Shown here: positions 32,081-51,202 of the stretch, one piece after another
Position numbering within the stretch: the stretch's first letter is position 1
Layout of the letters: every line of letters begins with the position of its first letter
Source of the DNA: Sphyrna mokarran
Taxonomy: Eukaryota
Length of the DNA stretch: 64,000 bases
Reading direction: 5' to 3'
Assembly (NCBI GenBank): GCA_024679065.1
Contig: JAGIQG010000013.1
Coordinates: forward strand, 23,994,001 to 24,058,000
Notes under the pieces: model-generated
What the model was told of the DNA's origin: nothing
The model's database searches: none
What the model saw: the letters and a program-made list of their open reading frames with translations, nothing else
Position numbers and translations under genes: made by a program

Positions 32081-34517
32081 ATTGATCATATGGCTCAGTC
32101 TGCAGCCTGCCTATCCTTTTCCAATAACTTACCCACATTTTTCAAGCTGGAGAGGATCCTGGTGATTGTGGGCCTTTTGTTTTTTCATAAAAGCTTTTAA
32201 AACTTATACAACTGCAGAAATTCTTGTCCAGATGATCTTAGATGTTTTTTGCAGGACCTTGCTGTTTTCAAATTTTGTAGCACTCACAGCAACTGGGGCA
32301 CAAGTATGCAACATAAGTTAGATTTATCCCATCCTCGGCACCAGAATAATAACTTGAGGTAGGGGCAGATTTGCTGCAGTTAAACTTAACTTCTGTTGAG
32401 AACACTTCTGGCATTGCTTAGATGCTTCTTGCCACCTTCCATAGTGACTAACACGGCTGCCTCAGAGCACCAGGGATTCAGCCCTATCCCACTCGCAGCT
32501 AATTAAGAACACCCCTTGTGTAATATCCCTGCAGGACAATCGGATCTGTGGTTGGCAAAGCTGACCAGCTTTCAGGTCGGGTGGAGGGCTGGGGAGAGGG
32601 ACAGGTAATCTTCCCCCATCATAAAATCCATCCTCTAGAGTCATTTGTGGCATAGAAGGGGATCATTCAGCCCATTGAATACCTGCAGACTCAGCAATCC
32701 AATCAGTCAACTCCTCTGCTCAATTCCTGTAGCCCTGCATATTTATTTCTTTTCCTTTTGAAAACATTGTTATTTCCCACTTCCAACATGCTGGGGGTGG
32801 GGGGGGGGGGGGGGTGCAGCAAGTTCCTGATGATTACCCCGCATGAAAAAGTTCTTCCTCACTTTCCCCTGCATCTCAAGCGCAAATTCTTAAATCAAGT
32901 CCTACCAACAGTGGGTCAACTAGCCTACTTCCGTCTTACAACCATTCCACAACCCTAATGAGAACTTTGTCCTGTCTATCTTATCAAAGTAAGAGGTCTG
33001 GCTGATAGTAAATCTGCTAGCTTTCGGCATTTGTGCCTTTGTCAGGCGAAAGAGGTGTTCTGGTCTCCAAAAGCACACATATCAGCACAGACAGTTTACA
33101 GATTGCTGATTAGAATGTGAATCCTTACACCTAACCTGCTATTCAAGTCTTAAAGTGGCTAACAAAGGAACACTGAGCACTGAGGTTACAGAGATGTGTA
33201 TTGTCTCCAGACAGCATAGTAAGTGAAGACTTTTGCTAACCCAGGCAAGTCATGGGGGTTACAGATAGTGTGACATGAAGCCAAGATCCCTGTTAAGACT
33301 GTCCTCATGTGTGCCATCTTATCAAAGCCTGTCATAATCTTCCATACCCCTTTCAAATATCCTCTCAAACTTCTTTGCTCCTCGAAGAAAAATCTTAGAG
33401 CCGTTCCAATCTAACTTTATAGCTAAACCCTCTCCTCCTATTCCTGGAACCATTTTACGTGATATCTTGTCAAACACTTATTTAGAATCCACAGAGACAA
33501 CATCCTCCACGTTCCCTTCATCAACATTATCTGTTACTTCATAAAAATAATCAATTGGATCAGTCAGTCACGTTCTGTTTTTTTTTACAAATCTATGCTG
33601 GCTTTCCTTAAAGCATTTGTAACAGTTAATATTTTCCCTAGTGATGGATTATCAAAACCTTATCCAGCCAATCGGCTCATGGAACCAGCCAATAAATAAC
33701 TGCTTGGATTCTTAAATCCTTTCTTGAATAAGGACAAATCTAATGACAACATTGTTAGAAACTACTTTATCTTCACTTTCTGGCAGTGGGGATCTAAAAT
33801 TCGGGTAACTATTGGTGTAAAATTGACAGAACTGTCCAAAGTTAGTGCTTTAAGTTGCTTTGCTGGATAGTCCCTAGTGCAGGGGAACTTGCAAAGGGAA
33901 GTTACTGTTTCTGGACAATTGTCGTGTAAAGCCTTACCTGGGGACTTCCAAGAGAGTTTCCCTGCATTTCTTTGGGGTAGCGCCCTCTCTAAATCTGATG
34001 CCGGGGAGCCTGGAAGTTAGGGACCAAATATATTTTTTTGGTTGTAAGCTTTGACGATTTTTTGTTCAATGTTATAGAATACCAGTTACTGACAGAAGGG
34101 AGACTACTGCCATCTACTGGATTATTCACAGATAATACAGTAGAAAACATTAAAGAATGAACTAATCCAGATTCTGAAAATTAGATTGCTTGGAAAGTGT
34201 CTGTGCTGGCTCAAGTTACATTATACTGGCTCAAGTTGTGAGGGCATGTTTTTCAATTCAAGATTCAAGCAATTTTGAAGATCACTAGTAATAATTGGTT
34301 TGGGACCATATAATCTACTCCATAAATCGTGCTGCCAATTGTAGAGTAAAAACTATTGAAATTATAGCACCTGTGTTTGCAACTGGTGTTATAATTTGGG
34401 AAACAATTAAGTGAGATTCTGAGGCATAATGCAGAATTCCCTGAAACTGCACTTAAAACAATCAAAAAATAAGGGGACATTTAGTCTATTATGGCTACAG
34501 AGCCGCTAACTCTACAT

Positions 34518-39366: not shown

Positions 39367-39491
39367 TTGGAATTTTCCGACTGTGCTCCCCCAATGCCAG
39401 AAAATCGTGTCCGAGGTCAATGGCCCTTTCCATGGTCCGTGTCTCGCCTGTTATGATTCTTGTGGCAGGCGGGGTGGGAAAATTCCACCCT
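39367..39491. mobile_element. ~125-bp MITE, inverted homologue of 26220-26347
   Basis: TIR TGGAATTTTCC / GGAAAATTCCA; interior aligns with the reverse complement of 26220-26347. Confidence 0.7.
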
Positions 39492-39914
39492 AAAACACTA
39501 GCTATATACCATTTCAAGTCTGGATGAATCTTTGTCAGAACTGAAGGAACATTGTGTTGAATGAAGCACCAAATATTTGCCGACCTCCAATATTTTAGAA
39601 CTAATAAAGATAAGTATTAGAAAATAAAATGACCCCACAATTTCTCTCTGGGTGCAAACGTGGCTAAGAAATTATCTTAAATTTCTGGCAGGCCAAATCA
39701 GGGAAAGTTGGCAGACTATCTGGCTGCTAAGTCAGATATGCAATTGCAGACCTGAAGATGTGCATTAACGTCTTCGCCTTCTTTACTAAGTCCTGTCAGG
39801 GAATGGGCAATTTAATCAGTCAAAGTAGGAAACATCAGTATTCTGAGGTGGGCAGATGAATCAGTAAGTTCAACAGCAGTCAGCAAACTTAAACATTTGA
39901 ACGTGAAGACAGAT

Positions 39915-40328
39915 AACCTGCTTCTGCTCTCACTCCTCCCCACCGCCAGGAGGTGCGGATCCCGGCTGCCAAACTCCGAGCAAAACTCTTCTGTTCTCAG
40001 TCCTCCTCACCGCCGGGGGGCGCGGTGAGCTGAATCCTCAAACTCGGAACAGAAGCTGCCTGCTCTCAGTCCTCCTCACCACGAGGAAGCACAGTGAGCT
40101 GATTTCCCCAACTCGGAGTAGAAACCTCCTGCTTTCAGTCCTCCCCACCGCCGGGGGTGGCGCGGTAAACTGAATTCCCAAATTCAGAGCAGAAACCTCC
40201 TGCTCTTAGTCCTCCCCACCGCTGGGGGGCGCGGTGAGCTGAACTCCCAAATTCAGAGCAGAAACCTCCTGCTTTCAGTCCTCCCCACCGCTGGGGGCGC
40301 GGTGAGCTGAATTCCCAACTTGGAGCAA
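39915..40328. repeat. Tandem repeat, 6 units of 67-71 bp, GC-rich
   Basis: Anchor CTGYTYTYA(G/C)TCCTCC recurs at 39924, 39991, 40060, 40129, 40200 and 40269. Confidence 0.92.
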
Positions 40329-40329
40329 A

Positions 40330-40620
40330 CAGCAGTTCGGGAGATCAACAAGGGAAAGGTGAAAGAGGAAAAAGAAATATCGAGGAGCGGAAACAGGAAG
40401 AGAGACTGAGTGTGTGTGAGAGAGAGAGATAAATAAAGAGACAAAATAGACAGGAAATTTTCTCCTTTCGCTAATACTTTCCTGCTCGGACTGAGTGGTG
40501 TCAGGCTTGCCGTTTCCAAGGTGACAGCGGCTGAAGGAGAGGAAAATGTCGCTCTTCGGGAAGAAGAAGACGGCGGAAGGTGAGTGACTGAGGTCGGGGC
40601 CAGACCGAGGAAGCAGATTA
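40330..40620 (+). promoter_or_regulatory. CHMP2B core promoter / 5' UTR, CpG-enriched and TATA-less
   Basis: CpG density is locally high against a CpG-depleted background; tandem ETS-like cores GCGGAAACAGGAAG at ~40387-40400; TSS not locatable from sequence. Confidence 0.6.
40546..40579 (+). CDS. CHMP2B: CHMP2B coding exon 1 (MSLFGKKKTAE+G), 34 nt
   Basis: ATG at 40546 in context GAAAATGT; donor G|GTGAGT at 40580; resembles human N-terminus MASLFKKKTVD; phase 1 joins exon 2 in frame. Confidence 0.93.
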
Positions 40621-40642
40621 ACCCAAGTCTGGGCTGCCAGCT

Positions 40643-40942
40643 AAAGTTAAAGTTTATTTATTAGTGTCACAAGTAAGACTTACTTTCAGACCGCAATGAA
40701 AATCGCCTTGTCGCCACGCTCCGGTGCCTATTCGGGTACACTGAGGGAGACCTTAACATGGTCAGTGGAGCTAACCAGCACGTCTTTGGACTGTGGGAGG
40801 AAACCAGAGCTCCCGGAGGAAACGCGTGCAGACAGAGGGAGAATGTGCAAACTCCACACAGACAGGGACCCCAGCCGGGAATGGAACCTAGGTCCCTGGT
40901 GCTGTGAGGCTACAGTGCTAACCACTGTGCCCCATGCTGCCT
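40643..40942 (-). mobile_element. V-SINE type B in CHMP2B intron 1
   Basis: aaagtttatttattagtgtcacaagtaag tail with head at 40900-40940. Confidence 0.88.
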
Positions 40943-40990
40943 GGGCCAGGCTGAGAAGACATACCATCTATCCTCCTTTCATTCTGATTG

Positions 40991-50187: not shown

Positions 50188-50965
50188 AGACCATAAGACA
50201 TAGGAATAGAAGTAGTCCATTTGGTCATTGAGTGTGTTCCGCCATTCAGTGAGATCATGACTGATCTGATATGATAACCCTTAACTCCACTTTTCCACCT
50301 TATCCACATAACCTTTGATCCCTTACTGATTAAAAACCTGTCTATCTCAGCCTTGAACATACTTAATGACCCTAGCCTCTACAGCCCTCTGTGTAAATAA
50401 TTCCACAGATTTACTACCTTCTGAGAGAAGAAATTTGGTCCTATAGTCTTTCTCCATTTCAATAATATTCAGCTGATTTATTCTTCCCACCAAAGTGCAT
50501 AACTTCACACCTCCCTATATTTTGTCTATTATATAGATATTAACCTGTCTATATCTCACTGTAGACTCTTTGTGCCATCTTCATCACCTGCCTTCCCACC
50601 TATTTTTGTGTCATTTGTAAACTTGGCAATGATACATTTGCTTTCCTTGTCCAAACCATTATTATATACATGATCCATTTTTATATGCACTGATTCTTAT
50701 AACACTCTACTAATTATAGGCTGCTATCCTGAAAATGCCCCTACTCTCTGTCTGCTGTTATCCCTACTCTCTGTCTGCTGTTATCCCTACTCTCTGTCTG
50801 CTGTTATCCCTGCTCTCTGTCTGCTGTTAATTAGACAGTCCTCTTGCCATGCTAATATGCTACCCCAGTACCATGGGCCCATACTTTATATAACCTTTTG
50901 TGTGGTAAATTATTCTATATTTTTGGAAATCTGAGTGTTTTACTTCTACTAATTCCTTTGGAAGG
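50188..50965 (-). mobile_element. Decayed CR1 LINE fragments ending ~40 bp before exon 3
   Basis: accataagacatagga tail; antisense remnants of KF.DDTKIGG and DFQK. Confidence 0.75.
50739..50829. repeat. Minisatellite, 23 bp x 4 (CCCTACTCTCTGTCTGCTGTTAT)
   Basis: Three perfect copies and one with a single substitution. Confidence 0.95.
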
Positions 50966-51007
50966 GTGTTTTCTCTTCTATACCTGATTTTATTTGTGCT
51001 TAACCAG

Positions 51008-51202
51008 GAAATGGAAATTAAGAAAATGGCCAAGGCTGGCAACAAAGATGCTTGCAAGGTTCTTGCCAAACAACTTGTGCAGTTGCGGAAACAGAAAACC
51101 CGTACGTATGCTGTGAGTTCGAAGGTTACTTCTATGTCTACTCAGGCTAAATTAATGAACTCTCAGATGAAGATGGCTGGTGCCATGGCTACCACAACAA
51201 AG
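51008..51202 (+). CDS. CHMP2B: CHMP2B coding exon 3 (EMEIKKMAKAGNKDACKVLAKQLVQLRKQKTRTYAVSSKVTSMSTQAKLMNSQMKMAGAMATTTK), 195 nt
   Basis: Lies inside ORF 50966..51229; acceptor cttaaccAG, donor AAG|GTACAT; Snf7-family sequence. Confidence 0.97.

What the first reader, a model, noticed from the sequence alone, without database searches (positions are those of the whole stretch)
39915..40328. Promoter-proximal array of six CTCF-like sites built by a 69-bp tandem repeat
Seen: six 67-71-bp units end ~220 bp before the CHMP2B ATG. Each unit has a same-orientation core: CCGCCAGGAGGTGC (39943), CCGCCGGGGGGCGC (40010), CCACGAGGAAGCAC (40079), CCGCCGGGGGTGGCGC (40148), CCGCTGGGGGGCGC (40219) and CCGCTGGGGGCGC (40288). 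Most are preceded 5 bp upstream by (T/C)TCAGTCCT. CpGs are retained, unlike in the rest of the window. Known: the CTCF core is about CCRSYAGRKGGCRS, with an optional TGCAGT-like ZF9-11 module 5-6 bp upstream. In bony vertebrates CHMP2B lies between VGLL3 and POU1F1. Inference: this is a repeat-amplified, unmethylated, directional insulator separating an upstream enhancer desert from a housekeeping promoter, and it may vary in copy number.
Basis: partly seen in the sequence, partly recalled or inferred. Interest (0 to 1): 0.72.

Follow-up and report, generated by a model that had tools for sequence, protein, structure and literature searches.

The report
Shark promoter repeat of CTCF-type sites
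A 69-base repeat copied six times just before the CHMP2B gene of what is likely a shark carries look-alike sites for the genome-folding protein CTCF, and shares an unexplained extra motif with about two dozen other clustered sites in the same genome, many of them at gene starts, so it is likely part of the promoter rather than an insulator; binding is untested.

Summary
The array is real: six 67-71-bp units (39907-40325) ending 218 bp before the ATG, single-copy, present in five other sequencing runs. In this genome no core fits the CTCF consensus fully (two have one mismatch); in relatives units 1, 2 and the last mostly do. The proposed ZF9-11 module is misplaced: offset 14, against 17-18 for 41 of 74 genomic sites. 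The conserved upstream block is a different feature: CTCC at -7..-4 occurs in 11 of 16 other core-selected arrays, 0 of 30 single sites and all six units here. These loci have unrelated linkers and often abut first exons (FBXL5, TADA1 confirmed). Best reading: a tandemly amplified, transcription-oriented promoter site of CTCF type, likely helping to keep the promoter open. An insulator against an 'upstream desert' is less likely: the gap to the vestigial-like gene is about 42 kb and the cores face downstream, though a divergent perfect core at 34107 leaves a boundary role open. No selection on the cores, no binding and no copy-number polymorphism were shown. CTCF-bearing promoter repeats are known in mammals, and this scan noted seven similar arrays in other genomes; I found the CTCC extension in no paper or note searched.

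The parts
39907..40325 (+). Tandem array, six units of 67-71 bp; units 4-6 are 88-94% alike, unit 1 58-66%, unit 3 58-75%
39934..39956 (+). Unit 1: TCCTCC block (-9..-4) and core with mismatches at core positions 9 and 12; full consensus in 4 of 5 relatives' runs
   Evidence: 17.4 bits
40001..40023 (+). Unit 2: TCCTCC block and core with G at position 6; full consensus in 4 of 4 relatives' runs with rows shown
   Evidence: 23.8 bits
40070..40092 (+). Unit 3: TCCTCC block, damaged core (3 mismatches)
   Evidence: 10.0 bits
40139..40163 (+). Unit 4: TCCTCC block, core with 2 extra bases
   Evidence: 12.2 bits
40210..40232 (+). Unit 5: TCCTCC block and core with G at position 6; best site of the window
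   Evidence: 24.5 bits; 9.6 bits upstream-only
40279..40300 (+). Unit 6: TCCTCC block, core one base short; relatives have the base
   Evidence: 12.0 bits
40399..40445 (+). GA/GT microsatellite between array and start codon
40546..40579 (+). First coding exon of the CHMP2B-like gene (name from recalled sequence and synteny)
51005..51202 (+). Snf7-family coding exon of the same gene
34107..34120 (-). Single full-consensus CTCF core, 5.8 kb upstream, pointing away from the array (divergent pair); lacks the CTCC block

Best explanation
The array is a tandem amplification of one CTCF-type site of a promoter class found at many places in this genome (TCCTCC, three bases, then a CpG-bearing core pointing into the gene); CTCF, or its paralog CTCFL in testis, likely binds the better copies (units 2, 5, perhaps 1) and would mark the upstream edge of the open CHMP2B promoter and help keep it accessible and unmethylated. 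Shown: array, position, orientation, class membership by sequence, presence in relatives, turnover of good cores between lineages. Inferred: protein binding, the activating role, methylation sensitivity (CpG at core positions 2-3 in five of six units), redundancy of the copies.
For: Consensus core is 20-fold enriched genome-wide (2259 vs 110 reversed control). Relatives have full-consensus cores in units 1, 2 and the last, differing from each other at the tolerant positions 3 and 9. Paired cores 59-84 bp apart: 77 matches vs 3 control, 18 loci. CTCC at -7..-4: 11 of 16 arrays vs 0 of 30 single cores, p 3e-7; a matrix of the 12 upstream bases only, from 15 core-selected loci, scores the six units 6.4-9.6 bits, single cores at most 0.9, and picks the core register as best of 138. 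The -19..-1 stretch is the least variable part of the unit (7 of 114 vs 56 of 300; segment chosen after seeing the alignment). 14 of 14 newly found loci have CTCC 2-3 bases before a CpG-type core. Candidate first exons within 450 bp: 20 of 28 class loci vs 2 of 30 single cores; FBXL5 residues 1-28 and TADA1 1-25 follow arrays in the same direction. Mammalian precedent: activating CTCF sites about 60 bp before the start, 90% in the direction of transcription (10.1101/095802, passages); clustered sites at active promoters, bound by CTCF and BORIS (PMC4562119, passages).
Against: No binding data. In this genome 0 of 6 cores fit the consensus and 4 of 6 are damaged; the bases after the core are GG or AG, not the T/C-G seen in 8 of 16 other arrays. 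Units 1-2 differ from organism B more than the flank does (18 of 129 vs 24 of 339, p 0.03), 6 of 28 core bases among them, and one change in relatives breaks CTCC in unit 2 (40005): no sign of purifying selection. Orientation bias of the class is not significant (14 forward, 6 backward, p 0.12); RNF7 lies on the back side of its array; 11 of 12 candidate exons gave no Pfam hit. The exon caller needs CpG-rich context, which favours class loci. The same preprint found no enrichment of tandem sites at CTCF-dependent promoters. Motif prediction alone failed at human Hox clusters (PMC5504073, passage). The transcription start is not known.
Confidence: 0.55

Rival explanations
1. Directional insulator or loop anchor: the forward array and the reverse core at 34107 form a divergent boundary between the vestigial-like gene and CHMP2B/POU1F1. 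It can coexist with the promoter role.
For: Full-consensus reverse core 5.8 kb upstream; at 0.81 cores per Mb the chance within 6 kb in that direction is about 0.002, judged after the fact. Developmental genes on both sides. Skate domains follow a CTCF orientation code, divergent sites at insulation minima (PMC10115646, passages). Tandem sites insulate in mammals (PMC7087399, abstract).
Against: No ZF9-11 module at working spacing, which known insulators typically have (PMC12885311, passages). That paper places the best-blocked enhancer downstream of the core, so not in the upstream interval. Only two good cores here. Class members sit at many unrelated gene starts.
Confidence: 0.15
2. Another zinc-finger protein, not CTCF, reads TCCTCC plus the GC-rich core (Sp/KLF, MAZ or ZIC type, or a lineage-specific protein); the CTCF likeness is incidental or secondary.
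For: The best-kept part of the unit is the pyrimidine block, not the core (7 of 114 vs 12 of 84 changes). The CTCC block is absent from ordinary single cores (0 of 30; no peak, 7 of 53). Class position 6 is loose: A 0.53, G 0.23, T 0.20.
Against: Class loci keep the full 14-base core and often T/C-G after it; several arrays hold 6-32 full-consensus cores; G6 cores show the CTCF upstream-module spacing. No matrices for these factors were tested; their motifs are recalled.
Confidence: 0.15
3. A neutral minisatellite: at most one ancestral promoter site mattered, and the copies are decaying without being bound; A at position 6 in relatives arose by CpG-to-CpA decay of the CG at core positions 5-6.
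For: Faster divergence than the flank; four damaged cores; positions 5-6 read CG, TG or CA in different units, as CpG decay would give.
Against: The same extended motif recurs in arrays with unrelated linkers (mean 6.3 of 21 identical), also in old arrays whose spacing has become irregular; CpG is not decaying fast in the array; the array persists in five other runs.
Confidence: 0.12

Closest known systems
Clustered CTCF/BORIS sites (2xCTS) and CTCF/BORIS-bound tandem repeats (PMC4562119, passages; PMC5007689, passages)
   Same: Two or more close motifs, GC/CpG-rich, at promoters, often made by tandem repeats; elasmobranchs have a testis-biased CTCFL (PMC7471279, abstract)
   Different: Occupancy is not shown here; the passages read mention no CTCC block 2-3 bases before the core; different vertebrate lineage
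Promoter-proximal activating CTCF sites (Nora et al. preprint 10.1101/095802, passages)
   Same: Upstream of the gene start, in the direction of transcription
   Different: Those are mostly not tandem; distance to the start (about 60 bp) could not be measured here; no depletion test
DXPas34 minisatellite at the rodent Tsix promoter (PMC3149622, passages)
   Same: CpG-rich minisatellite beside a promoter, one CTCF site per monomer, monomers up to 70 bp, site number turning over between related species
   Different: DXPas34 serves X inactivation at one locus; this array is one of many at apparently ordinary genes, with a shared extension
Tandem CTCF insulators (PMC7087399, abstract; D4Z4 cited in PMC13196383, passages; IL3 insulator PMC12885311, passages)
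   Same: Co-oriented sites between genes
   Different: No ZF9-11 module at working spacing; blocking untested; cores weak in this species

Membership tests
   0 of 6 exact, 2 of 6 with one mismatch here; exact in relatives' units 1, 2 and last as far as rows are listed
CTCF binding site | Score above shuffles with a site matrix | tested here: met
   Matrix from 28 other loci of this genome (not JASPAR; core positions partly fixed by the search): 0, 0, 4, 2, 0, 1 of 1000 shuffles reach the units' scores
CTCF binding site | ZF9-11 upstream module (TGCAG at offset 17-18) | tested here: not met
CTCF binding site | Occupancy in vivo or binding in vitro | not testable with these tools
   No ChIP or EMSA data
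CTCF binding site | Core conserved above flanks across species | tested here: not met
   6 of 28 core bases and 18 of 129 unit bases differ from organism B, flank 24 of 339
Clustered CTCF/BORIS site (2xCTS) or CTCF-bearing tandem repeat | Two or more close motifs at a promoter | tested here: met
Clustered CTCF/BORIS site (2xCTS) or CTCF-bearing tandem repeat | CTCF/CTCFL co-occupancy, active chromatin marks | not testable with these tools
   No chromatin data
Promoter-proximal activating CTCF site | Motif in the direction of transcription | tested here: met
   Cores and gene on the + strand
Promoter-proximal activating CTCF site | About 60 bp before the transcription start | tested here: inconclusive
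   Start not mappable from contigs
Promoter-proximal activating CTCF site | Expression falls on CTCF loss | not testable with these tools
   Needs experiment
Enhancer-blocking insulator / domain boundary | Divergent orientation with a neighbouring site | tested here: met
   Reverse full core at 34107-34120
Enhancer-blocking insulator / domain boundary | Blocking activity or Hi-C boundary | not testable with these tools
   No Hi-C or reporter data
Variable-number tandem repeat | Copy number differs between individuals | tested here: inconclusive
   Contigs break inside the array in all runs; at least 5 units in C, D, E and at least 6 in B
7SL/SRP-derived repeat | Similarity to SRP RNA above shuffles | tested here: not met
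   13-482 of 500 shuffles score as high in 10 comparisons with the genome's own SRP gene; no Rfam match near threshold

The most novel reading that the evidence does not exclude
Cartilaginous fish have a distinct promoter class of CTCF-family site, with an extra (TC)CTCC block 2-3 bases before a CpG-bearing core, read by an undescribed finger usage of CTCF or by germ-line CTCFL; such sites have been amplified into minisatellites again and again, independently, in front of housekeeping genes (CHMP2B, FBXL5, TADA1 and others), making repeat copy number a general tuning device for promoters.
Probability: 0.3. Interest if true: 0.75.

Novelty: new variant of a known kind. Interest (0 to 1): 0.48.

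Why it matters
The single array is an ordinary kind of thing: CTCF-bearing promoter repeats are known from mammals. What could matter is the class behind it. If the CTCC extension separates promoter-type from dispersed CTCF sites by sequence alone, it bears on the open question of how one protein acts as activator at some sites and insulator at others, and gives a short list of about 30 natural multi-copy sites on which CTCF and CTCFL can be compared.

Tried and rejected
Hairpin coding: unit z-scores -1.73 to 0.31. Structured RNA: 6 Rfam matches, all far below their thresholds. 7SL origin, suggested by recall: not above shuffles. Dispersed repeat origin of the unit: one locus by DNA search (it skips common words), 3 outside pattern matches vs 4 control with no similarity beyond the seed. 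CTGCT(C/T) at offset 18 as ZF9-11 module: no genomic peak. CTCC as a general extension of single cores: no peak (7 of 53 non-array rows, counted by eye among the first 100 of 122 listed). CpG-island side bias of the arrays: none (p 0.9). No RNA holder on record was listed; run X2 (RNA is a guess) has cover at 40334-40427 and none over the array, which cannot show a start. Copy number: lower depth of X1 over 40122-40398 fits a shared 32-mer or GC bias as well as a shorter allele. Gene naming: PDB gave only CHMP3/CHMP2A for the Snf7 exon, the Atlas Snf7 without paralog and nothing for L036. PMC8282625 (passages) proved irrelevant.

Full report
Observation. Six units lie at 39907-40325 with spacing 67, 69, 69, 71, 69; TRF gives period 69 and 79% matches. 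Units 4-6 are 88-94% alike, unit 1 only 58-66%. The ATG is at 40546 and a Snf7 exon at about 51005-51202. A Vg_Tdu exon lies 4.1 kb before the window with its ATG about 1.7 kb before it, and a POU exon 9.5 kb after it, both on the minus strand. The upstream interval is about 42 kb. CpG o/e is 0.59 against 0.24 for the window, though three other stretches are as high; CpG positions do not decay much faster than other C/G between units (10 of 59 vs 26 of 209). The array is single-copy as far as the searches reach.

Cores. Against CCRSYAGRKGGCRS, which is 20-fold enriched in this genome (2259 vs 110), the six cores have 2, 1, 3, 3, 1 and 3 mismatches; window-wide, near matches are not above chance (12 vs 9.1). 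G at position 6 is tolerated: 12 of 25 such cores with an upstream TGCAG have it at offset 17-18 (p 0.004).

Relatives. Of 24 runs listed I laid seven; five from other or unlabelled organisms hold the array (X3, X7, X11, X12, X13). All five show 39945 G>A, 39951 A>G, 39954 T>C, which makes unit 1 a full match in four (X3 has a further change). Four of four with rows shown have 40015 G>A and 40018 G>T, a full match in unit 2. X12 and X13 have a C put in behind 40290 and 40292 T>A, a full match in the last unit as far as rows are listed; X3 adds a mismatch. Middle units keep G at 6. Caveats: 97 and 26 rows were not shown, depth is 2-4 in X11 and X13, the relatives share most differences and are not independent, and there is no outgroup to tell loss here from gain there. 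Units 1-2 differ from B more than the flank (18 of 129 vs 24 of 339, p 0.03), so selection on the cores is not shown. Unit numbers are at least 5-6; contigs break inside the array.

Upstream module. Genomic TGCAG+core sites peak at offsets 17-18 (41 of 74; 3 of 74 at offset 14; control 0), in line with PMC10287918 (passages). TGCT(C/T) at offset 18 has no peak.

A class. Paired cores 59-84 bp apart give 77 matches against 3 for the control, in 18 loci, 16 after dropping two contigs with a repeated unit. Their linkers are unrelated (mean 6.3 of 21 identical; one duplicate pair), yet 11 of 16 have CTCC at -7..-4 (10 of 15 without the duplicate) against 0 of the first 30 single cores; no 4-mer exceeded 6 in 20,000 shuffles; G at core position 3 is in 13 of 16 vs 4 of 30. 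All six units here carry TCCTCC at -9..-4. A matrix of upstream bases only, from 15 core-selected loci, scores them 6.4-9.6 bits, singles at most 0.9. A search for CTCC 1-5 bases before a CpG-type core gave 41 matches, control 0; all 14 new loci have spacing 2 or 3, and 8 of 14 hold two or more co-oriented cores. With the full matrix (28 loci, partly circular) the six units are the six best sites of the window; units 2 and 5 (23.8, 24.5 bits) are near the class median of 25.2, the others weak. Candidate first exons lie within 450 bp of 20 of 28 class loci (14 ahead, 6 behind; bias p 0.12) and 2 of 30 singles; the caller favours CpG-rich DNA. Three of three tested in PDB were real genes: FBXL5 and TADA1 ahead, RNF7 behind; 1 of 12 hit Pfam, Erv26 below its cut-off.

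Mechanism. Shown: anatomy, orientation, class membership, turnover. Inferred: CTCF or CTCFL binds the better copies; in mammals such forward sites mark the start of the nucleosome-depleted region (10.1101/095802, passages) and clustered sites belong to active promoters and are shared with BORIS (PMC4562119, PMC5007689, passages); sharks have a testis-biased CTCFL (PMC7471279, abstract). CpG at core positions 2-3, the methylation-sensitive place, would tie binding to an unmethylated state. Redundant copies would allow the turnover seen. A boundary role remains possible: a full reverse core at 34107 makes a divergent pair, and skate uses the orientation code (PMC10115646, passages); but forward cores would face CHMP2B/POU1F1, not the upstream interval. 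What reads CTCC is unexplained.

Known and new. DXPas34 (PMC3149622, passages) and CTCF/BORIS-bound tandem repeats are the same kind. Seven earlier notes of this scan describe CTCF-like promoter minisatellites in other genomes (unchecked; they moved me toward the promoter reading); none was found for this stretch or for the CTCC extension. Ten paper searches (listings only unless named above) showed no account of a shark promoter class or of this extension; one search returned 0 papers. Most subscription papers, shark CTCF ChIP data and all supplements were not seen and may bear on this. Verdict: real, likely a promoter element, new variant of a known kind; interest 0.48.

Noticed in passing
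window 34107-34120 (-): The only full-consensus CTCF core in 134 kb scanned; divergent to the array; no CTCC block
   Followed up: partly
L031 3291-6530: 3.2-kb array, about 108 copies of 30-31 bp, 32 full-consensus cores, CpG o/e only 0.15: a much stronger insulator candidate than the window's array
   Followed up: no
L036 3395-4521 and 6358-6908: Two different 41-bp arrays 1.8 kb apart, same direction, 24 and 12 cores, the second just before a candidate first exon
   Followed up: partly
L027 4528-5414: 32-bp unit that is exactly TGCAG at offset 18 plus core, 28 copies: a complete core-plus-upstream-module site as a minisatellite
   Followed up: no
L034, L037, L039: The same 33-bp full-consensus array on three small contigs; duplicates or haplotigs
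   Followed up: no
L025, L041, L084: Three copies of a 34-bp array with the TADA1-like first exon behind it, differently decayed: a natural test of selection on the cores
   Followed up: partly
G000:C1437:96.42-96.52 Mb: Cluster of SRP RNA genes: 19 of the 25 scored matches lie within about 100 kb
   Followed up: no
window 40641-40945: High-copy SINE-like repeat in intron 1, 20 further hits in the window at 70-91%; V-SINE/HE1 type by recall
   Followed up: partly
window 39368-39581: Interspersed repeat with 14-nt inverted arms and very high depth in all DNA runs
   Followed up: no
window 50739-50829: Four copies of 23 bp, 98% alike, just before the Snf7 exon
   Followed up: no
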